A stretch of DNA of 32,000 nt from Paenibacillus pinihumi DSM 23905 = JCM 16419. Lineage in GTDB: Bacteria > Bacillota > Bacilli > Paenibacillales > Paenibacillaceae. Position numbers and translations under genes: made by a program. Within the stretch, counting starts at the first letter, position 1. Each line of letters begins with the position of its first letter. Positions 1 to 32,000 of this stretch are shown here, piece after piece. The notes under the pieces are model-generated. The model worked only from the letters and a program-made list of their open reading frames with translations, had not been told where the DNA came from and made no database searches. The stretch spans positions 61,328 through 93,327 of the forward strand of contig NZ_AULX01000030.1 in assembly GCF_000422505.1 (NCBI RefSeq), read 5' to 3'.

Positions 1-3000
1 TTATTTTCTTCGACTCCTCCTTAACATATTTTCCATTCTCTTTTTGCCCTCAGCAAGAGAACTCTCGATCGTAAGATGATTATTGGATTCGGAATTAATT
101 TCTCCACTATTCATGAAGTGAACTAAAGATCGGATGGTTGTATACTTAAACAAATATACTACCGGTATATCAATCTCTAGCTCATTACGAATTAAACGGT
201 TTAAATGCATAATCTTCAGGGAATTCCCGCCAAGATCGAAAAAGTTCTTAAGCACACTGATTTTTTCTTCTTCCAGTTGAAGTACATTACTCCATAGTGT
301 CAGCATTTTTCGTTCCGTTTCATTTCCGGGGGTTACAACCTGCTCCAGTTCCATCGCTTCTTTTGGATCCGGCAGAAGAATATAATTAATTTTCTTATTG
401 GAGGTTAATGGTACTTCTTCTATTTTAAGAATAAAAGAAGGAATCATATAATCAGGCAAAACCTTTAACAGAAAAGTCTTTATTTCTTCAGCTTTATATT
501 CATGGTTTGAGACATAATAGGCAATAATATATAAATTCTCATCACTGCCATTGTTTATGATGACTACCGCATCAGATACACCAGGTATCTTCAGAAGATT
601 ATGTTCAATTTCGCCCAATTCGATGCGGAAGCCGCGAAGCTGGACCTGCCTGTCGACCCGACCGGCATATTCAATCTCGCCTTCATCTGTCAGCCGGGCT
701 TTATCTCCGGTCTTAAAAACTCTTTCGGCGGGTTGATAAATATTTTTTGGAAAAACCTTCTCGGTTAATTCCGGTCTGTTCAAGTATCCCCTGGACACCC
801 CGGCACCACCGACAAAGAGTTCACCATAAACACCCGGAGGCAGCGGAGCACCGTTGTTGTCAAGAATATAAGCACACATACCCGGTAAAGGAGTACCGAT
901 ACTGCTCGTATTATTTTCAATATCTATTGGAGTTATCTCTTTAATTGTGACATGAACAGTTGTCTCCGTTATACCGTACATATTAATAAATTTTACATCC
1001 GGAAAAAGCTCTGACCATTTCTTCAACTTGGCCGGAGTTAATGTTTCACCACCGAAAATAACATAACGGATATCAAGAGAAATATCTTCATCAGAAACGG
1101 CTTCCTTACTTAAATTATAAAAAGAGGAAGGCGTCTGATTTAAAACGGTTATATTCTCTCTGGACAGTAACTTTAAAAACTGTCGGGTATCTTTTCTTTC
1201 TTCCCGGGATAAAACACATAATTTACCCCCGAACAGCAAAGCACCCCAAATCTCCCAAACAGAAAAATCGAAACAGTAGGAATGAAATAAAGTCCAGGCA
1301 TCTTTTTCATTAAAACCGAAAATAGCTTCGGAATTTACGAATAGGCTATACAAATTTCTGTGTTCGACCATTACTCCCTTCGGATTGCCGGTCGTCCCCG
1401 AGGTATAAATAATGTACGCCACATCCGCAGGATTGTTAATATTGTCGATCTGTTCCGGCTCGTCCGCATAACTGCTCTTATCGCCTACATAATAAACGTT
1501 GCCTGTCTCGAACAGATGATCATGTTTAATGTCACGCTGTGTCAGCAAGCAGCGGCTGCCGCTGTCTTGCAGCATAAACTTACAGCGCTCCTCGGGATAC
1601 TCCGTATCGATCGGCAGATAAGCCCCGCCGCTTTTCAATGTCGCAAGAATGGCAATAATCATTTCTATAGACGGCTGGAGGTACAAAGCAACCACAGTAC
1701 CGGGACCGACGCCATCTCTTCTCATTTTATTAGCCAGCTTATTGGCACTTATCAGGAGTTCACCATAAGTTATTTCCTCATCACCAAAACGAACGCAGGC
1801 CTTTGAGGAATACCTGCGAGCCTGTTCATCAAACAACTCTATTATTGTGCCAGAGGCAGGAATCGCAGCCGGCTCCCTGCCGGTAATAAAGGAGCAGGCT
1901 TCCTCCTCTTTTGTCATCAAATCCAAACGGGAAACCTTTTCATTTATTTTTTCTTTAACCTGGCCTGCCATCCGGATAAAGCAATTGCTCATCCTTTTAA
2001 TCGTCGATTCTTTAAACAGGGAAGCATTATAATCGAAAATTAGCTCCAGCTCATCACCTTGTAAAAAGGCAGTACACTGGAGATCATATTTCGCCACCTT
2101 GTGCTGGCAATTCAATTTACTGATATTCAAGTCAGCTAAATCGGCGACAAAATCATCGGACGACTGCATGACAAACACAATATCAATAAAAGGATTACGG
2201 CTTGGATCACGGTCAACATTCAGCTCTTCGATTAACTCCTCGAATGGGTATTCCTGGTTATCATAAATCCGGATCATTTTTTCTTTGAAGCGCAATACAA
2301 ATTGTTCCAGACTTAAATCAGAATCGATTTCGGTTTGAACGGCAAGCAGATTTACAAATACACCAATCAAATCTTCAAGTTCCGGACTTCTCCTCCCGGC
2401 CACAGGGACCCCGACCATGATCTTATCTTGTCCCGTCATGCGGGAAATGAGCAGATTAAACAGGGAGAGCAGAAGAATGAAAAGAGTCGAATTGGTATTT
2501 TTCGCTATATCCTGCAGCAGTCGGGTCGTTTCTTTGTCAAATTTAAAAGCGACCTGCTCGCCTGCTTCTTCACGAATAGGCGGACGCTTATAGTCCGTCG
2601 GAAGATTTACAACAGCATATCCGTTCTTAAATTCATTCAGCCAGAATTCCCGCTGTCGTGCTTTAATCTCCTGCTGTTCAATCGAGTTCAGCCAGTCGGC
2701 ATAATCTTTGTATTGAATTTTCATTTTCGGCAGTGCTTGCCCATTATAATAATGCACAAAATCCCTCACGATGATTGTGTCAGAAACACCATCAGTAGCT
2801 ATATGATGGATATCAATGATGAGCAGATGTTTGTTTTCTGCGACTTTCCCCAAGCCGATTCGGATTGGAAGCTCCTGATCCAAATCGAAGGGACGACGGA
2901 AACCATCTACCACAGCCTCCAGTGCACCCGGATCAGCTATCACTAGTTTTGTTATACTAAAGTTATGCTCGTCCATGATGACCTGACACGTTTTTTCCTG

Positions 3001-30421: not shown

Positions 30422-32000
30422 TCACTGGTAAAAAAGGCTCTCCAATTCATCCTGAGATATATCTACTGTATCAAAATCAGAAGGAGTAAATTCAACGGAT
30501 TCCTTATCACAGCAATGGTTAATAACTATTGTCAAATTCTTAACATAATCATTTAAAAAATTTTCCATTTTATTTCTGGAAAACATATTTGCACTATATG
30601 ACAACTGTATATTAAATTTGCCGCTTACTATGAAAGAATTCAATTCAATACGATAAGTTAAATGGTTATGCTGATCATAGTCACAACCTGGATGTTCATC
30701 CAATAATTTCACAGAATTATCTGCGTGTCCAGAACTGAAGTCCCCCAGGTAATTGAATCTAATATGCTTCTGCTTAATCTCTTCATTAAAAGCCATTGTT
30801 ATATACTTAAGTATACCAAAGCCAATTCCCTTATTAGGTATTTCCCTAATCCTCTCTTTAACCTCTTTAATCTGATATGATAAATCATCCTCTGTGAGCT
30901 TTATATAAAAAGGATATAAAGAAGTAAACCACCCAACTGTTCTTGAAATATCTATGTCTTCAAACATCTCATTCCTGCCATGGCCTTCAAGCTCAATTAC
31001 AATTTCTTCATTTCCAGTTAATTCTTTTAACGTTCTTACTAGAGAGGTTATTAATAAATCCTTTGGTTCAATATTATATGACACAGTAGCCTTTTTAAGC
31101 AGACGCTCTGTAAAATCTTCGTCCAATTGTACAGTTAGTGTTTCACTGCTATTAACAGTATCTTCTCCTACTTCATTATCCATAGGGAAAGTAAAGTCTT
31201 TTATTAAAACCTGCTCCCAATAGCTCTGTTCTTTCTCTATTTCTTTCTCAACATAGGTTTCAAGCATCATAGTCCATTCTTGATAGGAATGTGTTTTTAA
31301 AGGAAGTTTAATTGTTTGCCCACTATTTATCTGTTGGAACATAGCATTAATATCTTCCAAAATAATTCTCCAAGATACCCCATCAACTACTAAATGGTGG
31401 GCAGTAATCAGCCATTTTTTCTCCTCTTGTCCCAGCCTAAAAATACATGCCTTTATCAAAATATCTTGTTCAATATTAAACCCTGACTTTAGACTCTCAG
31501 CTATGCATGTCATCCTATCGGCTTGCTCAGCATTTGATAATCCTGTCAAGTCATGCTCTCGAATGCTACATTGCTTGCCCAAATGTTCATTATTATAATA
31601 TAATTCGCCAGTTGCTGAGTTGTAATTAGTCCTTAATGAATCATGATGTCTTATCAATTCGTTAAGCATTATTTCAAGTTTCCTGGTTTCTATTGCTTGT
31701 TTTATCTCCAACAAGATACTCTGATTATAATGGTTAGGATTAGTAAAATTCTGAGAGAAAAACCAATTTACAATTGGGGTATGTTTAATACTGCCTTCAC
31801 TAAATCCTTGATCAGCCAACAAGCCTTTGCTTTCTTCAATATACAATGCCATTTCTTCGATTATTGGGTTGGAAAGTATATCTTTCACTTTTATTTTGAA
31901 GCCTTTATCATTTAGTTTTGAAGTAATCTGTATAGCTTTGATTGAGTCTCCTCCGAGGTGATAAAAATTTTGCCTGATACTTATTCTTTCTATATCTAGA
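30422..32000 (-). CDS. 3' part of an NRPS gene (T-E didomain end); 5' end lies beyond position 32000
   Basis: The frame is open to the window edge. The codons upstream of the GTG used by the ORF track read LDIERISIRQNFYHLGGDSIKAIQITSKLNDKGFKIK, a T domain with GGDSI. The epimerisation domain shows TPIVNWFF and HHLVVDGVSWRIILEDI. Acidic C-terminal tail DFDTVDISQDELESLFYQ; stop TGA at 30422-30424. Confidence 0.88.
   Translation of the reverse strand, partial: LDIERISIRQNFYHLGGDSIKAIQITSKLNDKGFKIKVKDILSNPIIEEMALYIEESKGLLADQGFSEGSIKHTPIVNWFFSQNFTNPNHYNQSILLEIKQAIETRKLEIMLNELIRHHDSLRTNYNSATGELYYNNEHLGKQCSIREHDLTGLSNAEQADRMTCIAESLKSGFNIEQDILIKACIFRLGQEEKKWLITAHHLVVDGVSWRIILEDINAMFQQINSGQTIKLPLKTHSYQEWTMMLETYVEKEIEKEQSYWEQVLIKDFTFPMDNEVGEDTVNSSETLTVQLDEDFTERLLKKATVSYNIEPKDLLITSLVRTLKELTGNEEIVIELEGHGRNEMFEDIDISRTVGWFTSLYPFYIKLTEDDLSYQIKEVKERIREIPNKGIGFGILKYITMAFNEEIKQKHIRFNYLGDFSSGHADNSVKLLDEHPGCDYDQHNHLTYRIELNSFIVSGKFNIQLSYSANMFSRNKMENFLNDYVKNLTIVINHCCDKESVEFTPSDFDTVDISQDELESLFYQ

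What the first reader, a model, noticed from the sequence alone, without database searches (positions are those of the whole stretch)
1..32000. Zwittermicin-like but distinct prodrug-activated aminopolyol NRPS-PKS pathway
Seen in one co-directional gene block:
- an E-terminated NRPS
- a ClbP-type peptidase-exporter
- FkbH / ACP / HADH / ACP / ACAD / A(Ser) extender-unit genes
- a trans-AT
- a carbamoyltransferase
- two KR-only PKS modules interleaved with Lys-like and Thr NRPS modules

Established (from memory): this combination is the hallmark of the zwittermicin A (zma) pathway of Bacillus cereus. That pathway uses hydroxymalonyl-ACP and aminomalonyl-ACP extender units, a carbamoyltransferase and a ClbP-like peptidase.

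This cluster differs in several ways:
- different module composition and A-domain codes (DAESIGTVCK, DFWNIGMVHK)
- a single ACAD where zma has two
- an extra B12-radical SAM + ACP pair

Inference: the product is probably an undescribed cationic, polyhydroxylated/aminated, carbamoylated linear peptide-polyketide released from an N-acylated precursor.
Basis: partly seen in the sequence, partly recalled or inferred. Interest (0 to 1): 0.85.

Follow-up and report, generated by a model that had tools for sequence, protein, structure and literature searches.

The report
Orphan zwittermicin/paenilamicin-type antibiotic gene cluster
The window is the first half of a roughly 64-kb, uncharacterised Paenibacillus pinihumi gene cluster that should make a new member of the zwittermicin/paenilamicin class of sugar-like, positively charged antibiotics, built as a harmless precursor and switched on during export; it is a good genome-mining lead, not a new kind of system.

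Summary
The window comes from Paenibacillus pinihumi DSM 23905. It covers about half of a ~64-kb operon-like cluster running from a LoaP antiterminator to a second free acyltransferase.

Twelve window or flanking proteins are homologues of zwittermicin (Zma) proteins at only 29-61% identity. They include:
- a starter module C-A(Asn)-PCP-E;
- a ClbP-type peptidase/ABC exporter with all the D-Asn-recognition and membrane-domain residues I checked except K235;
- an FkbH/ACP/HADH arm and an A(Ser)/ACP/ACAD arm.

The assembly line differs from zwittermicin's: Lys, two KR-only PKS modules, Thr, then three further PKS/NRPS pairs. It ends in a BtrH-like domain.

- The carbamoyltransferase is TobZ/NodU-type, unrelated to zwittermicin's OTCase-type enzyme.
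- The first PKS module has a dead AT.
- The ZmaE-type dehydrogenase, ZmaR, ZmaL and the Dap genes are absent from the whole cluster.
- An IS630 transposase scar lies between the carbamoyltransferase and the B12-radical-SAM gene.
- Paenilamicin is as close in logic as zwittermicin.

No close homologue or publication was found, so the product is undescribed. Verdict: a new variant of a known kind, of moderate interest.

The parts
30422..32000 (-). 3' part (PCP-E) of the 1506-aa starter NRPS C-A(Asn)-PCP-E, the ZmaO homologue. The gene continues beyond the window.
   Evidence: Pfam Condensation E=3.4e-80. FYHLGGDS carrier motif. Full protein in L016: two C-type domains, A and PCP. 46% identical to ZmaO over the full length. 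A code DLTKVGEVCK against ZmaO DLTKIGEVCK. HHxxxDG motifs at residues 143 and 1182.
27281..30391 (-). Prodrug-activating S12 peptidase fused to an ABC exporter (type II, like ZmaM and PamJ).
   Evidence: PF00144 E=7e-68 plus ABC_tran. TIGR01194 cyclic peptide exporter, 371 bits against a cutoff of 286. 47% identical to ZmaM. The alignment to ClbP (7mdc) conserves E92, S95, K98, Y186, S188 (as Thr), H257 (as Asn), N331, K240, F243, D381, D387, P451, W460, F462, W466 and P468. Signal peptide, three TM helices at 407-502, further TM helices, Walker A at 868.
26529..27239 (-). Type II (editing) thioesterase.
   Evidence: PF00975 E=1.6e-45. 29% identical to ZmaP. GHSMG motif.
25453..26529 (-). FkbH-type glyceryl-ACP-forming enzyme.
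   Evidence: TIGR01686 FkbH, 252 bits against a cutoff of 147. 61% identical to ZmaN.
25162..25422 (-). ACP1, carrier of the FkbH (hydroxymalonyl) arm.
   Evidence: PP-binding domain. 57.5% identical to ZmaD. GFVNSLFAM serine motif.
24283..25134 (-). 3-hydroxyacyl dehydrogenase acting on ACP-bound glyceryl/seryl units.
   Evidence: 3HCDH_N and 3HCDH domains. 59% identical to ZmaG.
23991..24245 (-). ACP2, carrier of the serine (aminomalonyl) arm.
   Evidence: PP-binding domain. 54% identical to ZmaH. GLVSSLFAI motif.
22816..23994 (-). The only acyl-CoA-dehydrogenase-like enzyme of the cluster, of ZmaI (aminomalonyl) type.
   Evidence: Three ACAD domains. 53% identical to ZmaI against 36% to ZmaE. 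ZmaE has no other hit anywhere in the cluster.
21216..22811 (-). Free-standing serine-activating A domain.
   Evidence: AMP-binding domain. 50% identical to ZmaJ. Code DVWHFSLVDK against ZmaJ DVWHFSLIDK.
19977..21206 (-). Free-standing acyltransferase with a C-terminal extension of about 100 aa, ZmaF-like.
   Evidence: Acyl_transf_1 domain. 39% identical to ZmaF over 403 aa. Motifs GHSLG, IVY and GPFH, compared with ZmaF GYSLG, IAI and GPFH (motif definitions from PMC4207774).
17967..19949 (-). TobZ/NodU/CmcH-family carbamoyltransferase with a divergent N-terminal half. NCBI and Logan call a 632-aa version starting at 19865.
   Evidence: Carbam_trans_C E=2.8e-52. Carbam_trans_N matches only residues 271-368. 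NodU model 157 bits, far below its cutoff. PDB hits 7xb6, TobZ, NovN and GdmN. No hit in the zma cluster. GC 28.6%.
17597..17890 (+). Remnant of an IS630-type transposase gene (a scar), antisense to the operon. The 91-aa minus-strand ORF 17487-17762 that overlaps it is spurious.
   Evidence: Six-frame translation. DDE_3 PF13358 E=1.8e-6, 28.3 bits, just under the curated gathering cutoff of 28.6, profile positions 57-135 of 146. The 91-aa ORF has no Pfam or NCBIfam hit and was not called in the public assemblies.
15902..17524 (-). Cobalamin-binding radical SAM enzyme of unassigned chemistry.
   Evidence: Radical_SAM E=5e-14. The B12-binding hit is below Pfam's cutoff: E=3.7e-6, 27.2 bits against 32.1. 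C191-x3-C195-x2-C198. Best NCBIfam models are BchE and HpnJ, far below cutoff. Best PDB hit is OxsB, E=5.8e-24; CysS and TokK are much weaker. No homologue above 41% identity among 5.8 billion proteins.
15372..15635 (-). ACP3, a free carrier protein next to the radical SAM gene. NCBI calls an 83-aa version, 15372-15623.
   Evidence: PP-binding E=1e-11. GINSIAF serine motif. No BLAST hit to ZmaD or ZmaH.
7743..15125 (-). Hybrid NRPS-PKS of 2460 aa: C-A(Lys-like)-PCP-KS-AT0-KR-ACP.
   Evidence: Domain hits. Code DAESIGTVCK. Residues 1556-1870 have no Pfam hit and align to ATs, but with GYGDNE in place of GHSxGE and a truncation. KS cysteine in TACSTS. 35% identical to ZmaK.
1..7731 (-). Hybrid PKS-NRPS of 2576 aa, complete: KS-AT-KR-ACP-C-A(Thr)-PCP.
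   Evidence: Domain hits. Code DFWNIGMVHK. [quoted passage not shown] 37% identical to ZmaA module 2. The stop codon is at window positions 1-3.

Best explanation
The window is the upstream half of one ~64-kb, co-directional biosynthetic operon of Paenibacillus pinihumi DSM 23905, preceded by a LoaP antiterminator gene. It encodes an uncharacterised linear aminopolyol peptide-polyketide of the zwittermicin/paenilamicin class.

Proposed route (shown = sequence evidence here; inferred = by homology or reasoning):
1. The starter module C-A(Asn)-PCP-E makes an N-acyl-D-Asn cap (inferred from ZmaO, ClbN and XcnA).
2. C-A(Lys-like)-PCP adds a basic residue.
3. The AT-less KS-KR-ACP module and the KS-AT-KR-ACP module extend it by two reduced C2 units. 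This gives a 6-amino-3,5-dihydroxy acid of the galantinamic-acid type. The second unit is probably hydroxymalonate, because its AT carries the ZmaA-AT motifs.
4. Thr is added. Three more PKS/NRPS pairs outside the window follow, with A-domain codes for Thr-like, Thr and an unassigned residue.
5. A C-terminal BtrH/C39-like domain releases the chain (inferred).

Extender units. FkbH-ACP1-HADH supplies a glycerate-derived unit and A(Ser)-ACP2-HADH-ACAD supplies aminomalonyl-ACP. They are delivered by ATs that all lack the basic residue typical of CoA-using ATs. The single ZmaI-type ACAD must either serve both arms or leave the FkbH arm less oxidised.

Tailoring and export. A TobZ-type carbamoyltransferase most likely O-carbamoylates a hydroxyl. 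The B12-radical SAM enzyme most likely modifies a unit held on the adjacent ACP3; the chemistry is unknown. The fused peptidase/ABC protein exports the inactive precursor and cuts off N-acyl-D-Asn outside the cell, freeing the amine of the Lys-derived unit.
For: Source and extent:
- Exact-sequence look-ups name P. pinihumi proteins such as WP_028560599.
- Flanks show ROK and LoaP upstream.
- Downstream lie megasynthases of 3326 aa and 2458 aa and a further frameshift-fragmented one of ~2770 aa (sequence available only from the frameshifted assembly), then BtrH_N, ACP, AT and a flavin reductase.
- Next comes a housekeeping D-cysteine desulfhydrase, 65% identical to many Paenibacillus proteins, followed by unrelated genes on the other strand.

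Homology to the zwittermicin cluster from pBMB431: per-gene identities of 29-61%.

Prodrug logic:
- Asn code shared with ZmaO.
- E domain present.
- All but one (K235) of the 17 ClbP residues checked, those named as catalytic, D-Asn-binding, interdomain-interface or TMD residues in PMC9889268, are conserved.
- Signal peptide, TM helices and Walker A.

Extender-unit logic:
- FkbH model above its cutoff.
- AT motif table read against PMC4207774.
- Dead AT in the first PKS module.

Integrity: the active-site motifs I checked are present: C/E-domain HHxxxD, carrier-protein Ser, KS Cys, the radical-SAM CxxxCxxC, the TE GxSxG and Walker A.

Not described before:
- The B12-rSAM has no homologue above 41%, and the last NRPS module seen in L015 has none above 47% apart from one anonymous 80% fragment.
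- A BGC survey lists 19 unknown clusters and no activity for this strain.
- Literature searches found no compound.

Parallel with paenilamicin: its N-terminal unit derives from Lys, it has KR-only PKS modules, and its cluster includes PamJ, NusG and a HADH.
Against: - No chemistry is known. The strain showed no activity against M. luteus or E. coli, so the cluster may be silent.
- An IS630 scar lies inside the operon.
- The ZmaE/FkbI-type dehydrogenase that hydroxymalonyl-ACP pathways normally need is missing, so the nature of the FkbH-derived unit is uncertain.
- Assigning ATs to extender units rests on a motif hypothesis from one structural paper, not on assays. No AT in the cluster looks malonyl-CoA-specific, which is unexplained.
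- The 'Lys' assignment of DAESIGTVCK rests on my recollection of published codes.
- The N-terminal half of the carbamoyltransferase is too divergent to confirm a complete catalytic domain.
- The roles of the radical SAM enzyme and of ACP3 are guesses.
- Sequence comparison with the paenilamicin cluster could not be made.
Confidence: 0.8

Rival explanations
1. It is simply the zwittermicin A cluster, an orthologue in another genus, and makes zwittermicin A.
For: Twelve Zma proteins have a best hit here. Both unusual extender-unit cassettes and the ZmaO/ZmaM pair are present.
Against: - Identities are only 29-61%.
- There are five PKS modules where zwittermicin A's structure implies three (recalled, with domain hints).
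- A-domain codes read Lys-like, Thr, Thr-like, Thr and unassigned. None matches the zwittermicin assembly-line A domains (ZmaK, ZmaB, ZmaQ); only the Asn-cap code of ZmaO and the free Ser code of ZmaJ are shared.
- No SbnA/B, OTCase-type transcarbamylase, ZmaR, ZmaL, ZmaE or ZmaS homologue was found.
- Gene order differs.
Confidence: 0.02
2. It is a paenilamicin/galantin-type cluster: the product is a paenilamicin congener and zwittermicin is the more distant relative.
For: - Paenilamicin A starts with galantinamic acid made from Lys by a hybrid NRPS/PKS.
- All four of its PKS modules are KR-only.
- Its cluster has a type II peptidase/ABC (PamJ), a NusG-like gene, a HADH and an Asn-E starter NRPS.
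- The window has the same features.
Against: - No N-methyltransferase domain and no ZmaR-type GNAT (PamZ's closest relative, 31% identical per PMC9054821) were seen anywhere in the cluster.
- Three Thr-type modules are alien to the paenilamicin sequence.
- The serine/aminomalonyl cassette, the carbamoyltransferase and the radical SAM enzyme are not reported for pam.
- No pam sequence was available, so identity is untested.
Confidence: 0.15
3. The cluster is a decaying or silent relic that makes nothing.
For: - An IS630 transposase remnant sits inside the operon.
- One PKS module has a degenerate AT.
- The ZmaE-type enzyme is missing.
- The strain shows no antibacterial activity.
- Cluster GC of 27-43% against 44-51% in the flanking genes suggests foreign DNA.
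Against: - All 16 genes in the window, and the megasynthases outside it, are intact in the DSM assembly.
- Active-site motifs are intact.
- AT-less modules served in trans are normal.
- The scar is intergenic and no terminator-like site was found around it.
- The frameshifts seen belong to a second, low-quality assembly only.
Confidence: 0.12

Closest known systems
Zwittermicin A (zma) cluster of Bacillus cereus/thuringiensis (reference here: pBMB431, loci L012 and L017)
   Same: - N-acyl-D-Asn starter NRPS (ZmaO, 46%).
- Peptidase/ABC fusion (ZmaM, 47%).
- FkbH/ACP/HADH (61, 57 and 59%).
- A(Ser)/ACP/ACAD (50, 54 and 53%).
- ZmaF-like free AT (39%) and type II TE (29%).
- KR-only PKS modules, one with a ZmaA-type GYSFG AT.
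   Different: - Five PKS modules instead of three, with Lys-like and Thr-type A domains.
- The first PKS module's AT is dead, whereas ZmaK's is active.
- No ZmaE, ZmaR, ZmaL, ZmaS, Dap genes or OTCase-type transcarbamylase.
- Extra TobZ-type carbamoyltransferase, B12-radical SAM enzyme, two extra ACPs, a second free AT and LoaP.
- Different gene order.
Paenilamicin (pam) cluster of Paenibacillus larvae, and the related galantins
   Same: Compared by published description only:
- Asn-E starter NRPS.
- Type II peptidase/ABC (PamJ).
- NusG-type antiterminator and a HADH.
- A Lys-activating hybrid NRPS/PKS followed by KR-only PKS modules, giving an N-terminal 6-amino-2,3,5-trihydroxy acid whose amine carries the prodrug cap.
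   Different: - No N-MT domain and no ZmaR/PamZ-like GNAT found here.
- The Thr-rich module order differs.
- The aminomalonyl cassette, carbamoyltransferase and radical SAM enzyme are not described for pam.
- Sequence identity is untested.
ClbP/XcnG/AmiB prodrug-activating peptidases and the colibactin aminomalonyl genes ClbD-H
   Same: - Catalytic, D-Asn-binding and TMD residues of ClbP are conserved.
- The serine to aminomalonyl-ACP logic is the same.
   Different: - The peptidase is fused to an ABC exporter (type II), as in Firmicutes.
- The rest of the pathway is unrelated to colibactin.
Orphan cluster of Brevibacillus laterosporus B9 (L018)
   Same: Peptidase/ABC (49%), FkbH (63.5%), HADH (63.5%), ZmaO-like NRPS (50%) and PKS modules.
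   Different: - It has a ZmaE-type ACAD.
- It has no serine/aminomalonyl cassette, carbamoyltransferase or radical SAM enzyme.

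Membership tests
Prodrug-activating S12 peptidases (ClbP/XcnG/ZmaM/PamJ) | Catalytic SxxK and Yx(S/T) motifs, with Ser/Thr rather than Asn at ClbP position 188 | tested here: met
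   S99-A-S-K102 and Y-A-T align to ClbP S95/K98 and Y186/S188. Criteria come from PMC9889268.
Prodrug-activating S12 peptidases (ClbP/XcnG/ZmaM/PamJ) | D-Asn specificity residues N331 and E92 (strictly or highly conserved in the family, not across S12) | tested here: met
   HDGSN aligns to ClbP HGGQN (N331). FELGS aligns to YELGS (E92). Position 257 is Asn, the commonest family variant.
Prodrug-activating S12 peptidases (ClbP/XcnG/ZmaM/PamJ) | Three-helix membrane domain with W460, W466, P451, P468, D381 and D387 | tested here: met
   All six residues align identically. Hydrophobic helices at 407-425, 443-461 and 484-502.
Prodrug-activating S12 peptidases (ClbP/XcnG/ZmaM/PamJ) | Encoded next to an NRPS starter module C-A(Asn)-PCP-E | tested here: met
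   The adjacent upstream gene has that architecture, with code DLTKVGEVCK.
Prodrug-activating S12 peptidases (ClbP/XcnG/ZmaM/PamJ) | Cleaves N-acyl-D-Asn from a precursor | not testable with these tools
   Needs an enzyme assay or a mutant.
Zwittermicin A biosynthetic cluster | Complete hydroxymalonyl-ACP set: ZmaN, ZmaD, ZmaG and ZmaE | tested here: not met
   ZmaN, D and G homologues are present. ZmaE hits only the ZmaI-type gene, at 36%, and nothing else in the whole cluster.
Zwittermicin A biosynthetic cluster | Aminomalonyl-ACP set ZmaJ, ZmaH, ZmaG and ZmaI, plus ZmaF | tested here: met
   50, 54, 59, 53 and 39% identity. Ser code shared with ZmaJ.
Zwittermicin A biosynthetic cluster | Same assembly line (ZmaK, A, B, Q, C) with Ser and ureidoalanine building blocks | tested here: not met
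   Different module number and A-domain codes. No SbnA/B or OTCase-type enzyme.
Zwittermicin A biosynthetic cluster | Self-resistance acetyltransferase ZmaR | tested here: not met
   No tblastn hit at E<=1e-3 in the window or in L015, L016 and L022.
Paenilamicin (pam) cluster | Architecture: Asn-E starter, type II peptidase, NusG, HADH, Lys-activating hybrid followed by KR-only PKS modules | tested here: met
   Compared with the published description.
Paenilamicin (pam) cluster | Sequence orthology and synteny with pamA-pamN and pamZ | not testable with these tools
   No P. larvae sequence was reachable in the collections.
TobZ/NodU/CmcH carbamoyltransferases | YrdC-like C-terminal domain (PF16861) | tested here: met
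   E=2.8e-52, profile positions 4-166 of 170. PDB hits to TobZ, NovN and GdmN.
TobZ/NodU/CmcH carbamoyltransferases | Complete Kae1-like N-terminal domain (PF02543) | tested here: inconclusive
   Only residues 271-368 match, at profile positions 246-344 (E=1.6e-6). Residues 1-270 give no hit.
Cobalamin-dependent (class B) radical SAM enzymes | CxxxCxxC cluster motif together with an N-terminal B12-binding domain | tested here: inconclusive
   C191, C195 and C198 are present, and PF04055 scores 53 bits, above its cutoff. The PF02310 B12-binding hit scores 27 bits, below its cutoff of 32, E=3.7e-6. Full-length homologues are precomputed as having both domains.
Cobalamin-dependent (class B) radical SAM enzymes | Equivalence to a characterised member (methyltransferase, BchE, HpnJ, OxsB and others) | tested here: not met
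   All 21 NCBIfam hits lie far below their cutoffs; the best is BchE at 115 bits against 481. The best PDB hit is OxsB at E=5.8e-24.

The most novel reading that the evidence does not exclude
The B12-radical SAM enzyme and its neighbouring ACP3, possibly together with the TobZ-type carbamoyltransferase and the second ACP/AT pair at the end of the cluster, make a third, undescribed ACP-tethered polyketide extender or starter unit alongside hydroxymalonyl- and aminomalonyl-ACP.

What fits this reading:
- The cluster has four free ACPs and four ATs.
- None of the ATs has the basic residue typical of CoA-using ATs.
- The dedicated ZmaE-type dehydrogenase is missing.
- Radical SAM homologues sit beside free ATs or ACPs in other PKS/NRPS loci (L023, L025).
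Probability: 0.12. Interest if true: 0.75.

Novelty: new variant of a known kind. Interest (0 to 1): 0.42.

Why it matters
Zwittermicin and paenilamicin are rare cationic aminopolyol antibiotics, and paenilamicin is a ribosome translocation inhibitor. A third, structurally different member would widen this small class.
- It would probably be Thr-rich and O-carbamoylated, with an N-terminus of the galantinamic-acid type.
- The built-in prodrug handle gives a practical detection method: the N-acyl-D-Asn precursor should accumulate in a peptidase mutant.
- The cluster is a natural experiment on how ACP-linked extender units are made with one dehydrogenase instead of two.
- It is also a test of how four ATs are matched to four carrier proteins.
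- It offers a tractable context for assigning a function to a family of B12-radical SAM enzymes that recur in Clostridia and Bacillota PKS/NRPS loci.

It does not open a new kind of biology.

Tried and rejected
- The genome-contig scan with the peptidase did not return the source genome, only a 73% MAG fragment and distant ABC transporters.
- Exact look-up failed for two window proteins but worked for others.
- The homologue search with the 3326-aa protein timed out. A 500-aa piece returned fragments rather than the full protein. I therefore walked downstream through a frameshift-ridden second assembly.
- I first took the PALP gene after the cluster for a Dap synthase (SbnA). It is a housekeeping D-cysteine desulfhydrase and marks the cluster boundary.
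- I tested the 91-aa ORF between the carbamoyltransferase and radical SAM genes as a possible small protein and rejected it: no family hit, and it is antisense to an IS630 remnant.
- I looked for a riboswitch or other known RNA, for example a cobalamin riboswitch ahead of the B12 enzyme. There were no Rfam matches in the window, L016 or L023.
- The promoter/terminator scan of 15000-18200 found no terminator-like site and no promoter excess.
- The Kevany 2009 zwittermicin paper is not held, so I verified zma gene content directly on pBMB431.
- A literature search on B12-radical SAM enzymes with ACPs in PKS systems gave nothing useful.
- I did not assign KR stereochemistry. Neither KR has an LDD motif, but I did not pursue it.
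- I did not run structure prediction or fold searches, because they would not separate the candidate chemistries of the radical SAM enzyme.

Full report
**What is in the window.** Every ORF of 200 aa or more except one (2335-2946, + strand, antisense within the 2576-aa gene), and every gene assigned here, lies on the minus strand with short gaps or overlaps. In order of transcription, Pfam, NCBIfam and BLASTP assign them as follows:
- 30422-32000: the PCP-E end of an NRPS.
- 27281-30391: a beta-lactamase-fold (S12) peptidase fused to a cyclic-peptide-type ABC exporter.
- 26529-27239: a type II thioesterase.
- 25453-26529: FkbH.
- 25162-25422: an ACP.
- 24283-25134: a 3-hydroxyacyl dehydrogenase.
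- 23991-24245: a second ACP.
- 22816-23994: an acyl-CoA-dehydrogenase-like enzyme.
- 21216-22811: a free A domain.
- 19977-21206: a free acyltransferase.
- 17967-19949: a carbamoyltransferase.
- 15902-17524: a B12-binding radical SAM enzyme.
- 15372-15635: a third ACP.
- 7743-15125: C-A-PCP-KS-x-KR-ACP, 2460 aa.
- 1-7731: KS-AT-KR-ACP-C-A-PCP, 2576 aa, with its stop codon at positions 1-3.

I extracted the specificity codes by alignment to a GrsA fragment. The free A domain gives DVWHFSLVDK.

**Where it comes from, and the rest of the cluster.** Exact-sequence look-ups identify the proteins as Paenibacillus pinihumi, for example WP_028560599 and WP_028560597. The window corresponds to positions 53804-85803 of a 92-kb Logan contig.

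Upstream lie a ROK-family gene, a LoaP antiterminator (NF033641, 185 bits against a cutoff of 125) and the full 1506-aa starter NRPS, C-A-PCP-E.

Downstream I walked through the clean assembly and then a frameshift-ridden second assembly:
- A 3326-aa protein: KS, KR-like region, KR, ACP, C, C, A, PCP.
- A 2458-aa protein: KS-KR-ACP-C-A-PCP.
- A further synthetase: KS-AT-KR-ACP-C-A-PCP ending in a BtrH_N/C39-like domain.
- A fourth free ACP, a second free AT and a flavin reductase.

The next gene is a D-cysteine desulfhydrase, 65% identical to many housekeeping homologues. Only unrelated genes on the other strand follow it. The cluster is therefore about 64 kb and the window is its upstream half.

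**Comparison with zwittermicin.** I fetched the zma cluster from B. thuringiensis HD-1 plasmid pBMB431 and ran BLASTP and tblastn both ways.

| Zma protein | Identity |
|---|---|
| ZmaO | 46% |
| ZmaM | 47% |
| ZmaP | 29% |
| ZmaN | 61% |
| ZmaD | 57.5% |
| ZmaG | 59% |
| ZmaH | 54% |
| ZmaI | 53% |
| ZmaJ | 50% |
| ZmaF | 39% |
| ZmaK | 35% |
| ZmaA | 37% |

- ZmaE matches only the ZmaI-type gene, at 36%.
- ZmaR, ZmaL, ZmaS, SbnA and SbnB have no hit anywhere in the cluster.
- The carbamoyltransferase, the radical SAM enzyme and ACP3 have no hit in zma.
- Where zwittermicin A's structure implies three PKS modules (recalled), this line has five. Its A-domain codes read Asn, Lys-like, Thr, Thr-like (DFWNLGLVHK), Thr and an unassigned DIFHMGMIWK.

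So it is related to zma but clearly distinct from it.

**The carbamoyltransferase is not the zwittermicin one.** An unannotated ORF on pBMB431 (L012:37789-38667) is an OTCase-family enzyme, PF02729 and PF00185. This matches the published role of carbamylating free Dap to ureidoalanine (PMC4581275). The window enzyme belongs to the TobZ/NodU/CmcH family:
- PF16861 at E=2.8e-52.
- PDB hits to TobZ, NovN and GdmN.

As I recall, characterised members of that family O-carbamoylate hydroxyl groups. Its N-terminal 270 residues match nothing and the gene has only 28.6% GC. An O-carbamate on the polyol is therefore more likely than a ureido group. This is inference.

**Prodrug mechanism.** The ClbP structure paper lists the residues that define prodrug-activating peptidases (PMC9889268). 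In the phmmer alignment to ClbP chain 7mdc (offset 30) the window protein conserves the following:
- E92, S95, K98 and Y186.
- Position 188 as Thr and position 257 as Asn.
- N331, K240 and F243.
- D381, D387, P451, W460, F462, W466 and P468.
- Only K235 differs.

It also has a signal peptide, three hydrophobic helices at 407-502, further helices and a Walker A motif at 868. That is the 'type II' architecture of ZmaM, PamJ and EdeA. The adjacent module is C-A(Asn)-PCP-E and its code differs from ZmaO's at one position. Homology therefore strongly supports export-coupled removal of an N-acyl-D-Asn cap. The activity itself is untested.

**Extender units and acyltransferases.** PMC4207774 gives diagnostic motifs for the zwittermicin ATs. 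My alignment gives:

| AT | Substrate (published) | GHSxG | RXR | YASH |
|---|---|---|---|---|
| ZmaA-AT | hydroxymalonyl-ACP | GYSFG | MCM | GAAH |
| ZmaF | aminomalonyl-ACP | GYSLG | IAI | GPFH |
| ZmaK-AT | malonyl-CoA | GHSIG | KTT | HAFH |
| AT in the 2576-aa protein (window) | - | GYSFG | FCF | FASH |
| Free AT (window) | - | GHSLG | IVY | GPFH |
| AT of the last synthetase | - | GYSLG | FSF | RAVH |
| Second free AT | - | GHSLG | SIY | APFH |

None of the four ATs has the basic residue of CoA-using ATs, and there are four free ACPs. The 315-residue stretch after the KS of the 2460-aa protein has no Pfam hit. It aligns to ATs but carries GYGDNE in place of GHSxGE and is truncated, so it is a dead AT, whereas ZmaK's is intact.

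My reading:
- The window's two PKS modules turn the Lys-like residue into a 6-amino-3,5-dihydroxy acid.
- A hydroxymalonate-type unit probably goes in at the second step.
- That is the pattern of galantinamic acid, the N-terminal unit of paenilamicin A.

Which AT serves which module, and where plain malonate comes from, is not resolved. The absence of a ZmaE/FkbI-type dehydrogenase means either the ZmaI-type enzyme serves both arms or the FkbH-derived unit is used at a different oxidation state.

**The radical SAM/ACP pair.**
- The enzyme has C191-x3-C195-x2-C198 and an N-terminal B12-binding domain hit just below Pfam's cutoff (27.2 bits against 32.1).
- It reaches no NCBIfam cutoff. The best models are BchE and HpnJ, followed by various methylases.
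- Its best solved relative is OxsB at E=5.8e-24. The methylases CysS and TokK score far lower.
- Among 5.8 billion proteins the nearest homologues are 41% identical or less, mostly from Clostridia.
- The closest full-length relative (38%, L023) lies between an NRPS and a free AT plus a KS. A Wukongibacter locus has ACP-B12-rSAM pairs with KS and C domains.

The family therefore recurs in PKS/NRPS loci beside carrier proteins or ATs. My best guess is that it modifies a unit held on ACP3. I cannot say whether that is a methylation or a rearrangement.

**An IS scar.** The 442-bp gap between the carbamoyltransferase and radical SAM genes encodes, on the plus strand (17597-17890), 98 residues of an IS630-type transposase:
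- DDE_3, E=1.8e-6, 28.3 bits, just under the curated gathering cutoff of 28.6, profile positions 57-135 of 146.
- The 91-aa minus-strand ORF there has no family hit and is not called in the public assemblies, so I reject it as a gene.
- GC values: carbamoyltransferase 28.6%, gap 41.7%, radical SAM 38.1%, megasynthases 42-43%, flanking chromosomal genes 44-51%.

This suggests a mosaic, horizontally acquired cluster in which the carbamoyltransferase and the radical SAM/ACP pair were added later. That is inference.

**Is it known?**
- A survey of Paenibacillus BGCs lists P. pinihumi DSM 23905 with 19 unknown clusters and no activity against M. luteus or E. coli (PMC11210098).
- Text searches for the species and for combinations of the pathway's hallmarks found no compound.
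- Close relatives are few: a 5-kb Bacillota MAG fragment (68-73%) and a 2.3-kb metagenome fragment (80%).
- Brevibacillus laterosporus B9 carries a more distant orphan relative with only the FkbH arm and a ZmaE-type dehydrogenase.
- I could not compare sequences with the paenilamicin cluster, so that comparison rests on published architecture.

**Verdict.** This is an orphan, probably silent, ~64-kb cluster of the N-acyl-D-Asn-prodrug aminopolyol class. It is a new variant of a known kind. Three features lift it above a routine orphan cluster:
- the four-ACP, four-AT arrangement with no obvious CoA-type AT;
- the single dehydrogenase;
- the B12-radical SAM/ACP pair.

They remain hypotheses. 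I score interest at 0.42.

Noticed in passing
window 17597-17890 (+), within the gap 17525-17966: Remnant of an IS630-type transposase (DDE_3, E=1.8e-6) antisense to the operon, between the carbamoyltransferase and the B12-radical SAM gene. The 91-aa minus-strand ORF at 17487-17762 is therefore spurious. GC content steps across this point.
   Followed up: yes
window 9516-10460 (-), residues 1556-1870 of the 2460-aa protein: Degenerate, truncated acyltransferase domain: GYGDNE in place of GHSxGE and no Pfam hit. The equivalent ZmaK domain is an intact malonyl-type AT.
   Followed up: yes
L016:1469-2014, just upstream of the window: A LoaP-type NusG paralogue (NF033641, 185 bits) immediately precedes the cluster. 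The paenilamicin cluster reportedly has a NusG-like gene too. I did not look for a LoaP-dependent leader RNA.
   Followed up: partly
L015:17731-27711, the 3326-aa protein downstream of the window: Two odd features. Two condensation domains sit in tandem (residues about 1800-2226 and 2254-2687, the second with HHIICDN). An extra weak KR-like region (about 723-1039) precedes the real KR.
   Followed up: no
L022:16252-16986, the end of the last synthetase: The assembly line ends in a BtrH_N/peptidase-C39-like domain rather than a thioesterase. In zwittermicin the same domain type sits at the N-terminus of ZmaC. This suggests release by transfer or hydrolysis through a papain-like fold.
   Followed up: partly
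L022:17725-19152: A fourth free ACP is followed directly by a second free AT (GHSLG, SIY, APFH). With the other three ACPs and three ATs this makes four of each, and none of the ATs looks CoA-specific by the motif rule.
   Followed up: partly
L023:2-5341, a metagenome contig holding the closest radical SAM homologue: The NRPS upstream of the free radical SAM gene has its A domain interrupted by its own radical SAM plus B12-binding domains, and also shows a weak QueC-like stretch. This is an unusual embedded tailoring domain.
   Followed up: no
L012:37789-38667, plasmid pBMB431: An OTCase-family ORF between the PPTase and sbnA genes of the zwittermicin cluster is missing from the PLSDB gene table. 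It is the likely Dap transcarbamylase of that pathway.
   Followed up: yes
whole window against its flanks (L016:1-567; L022:21130-22157): Cluster genes have 27-43% GC, against 44% and 51% for the flanking chromosomal genes. The small accessory genes are the lowest: ACP1 27%, carbamoyltransferase 29%, ACP2 29%. This fits horizontal acquisition.
   Followed up: partly
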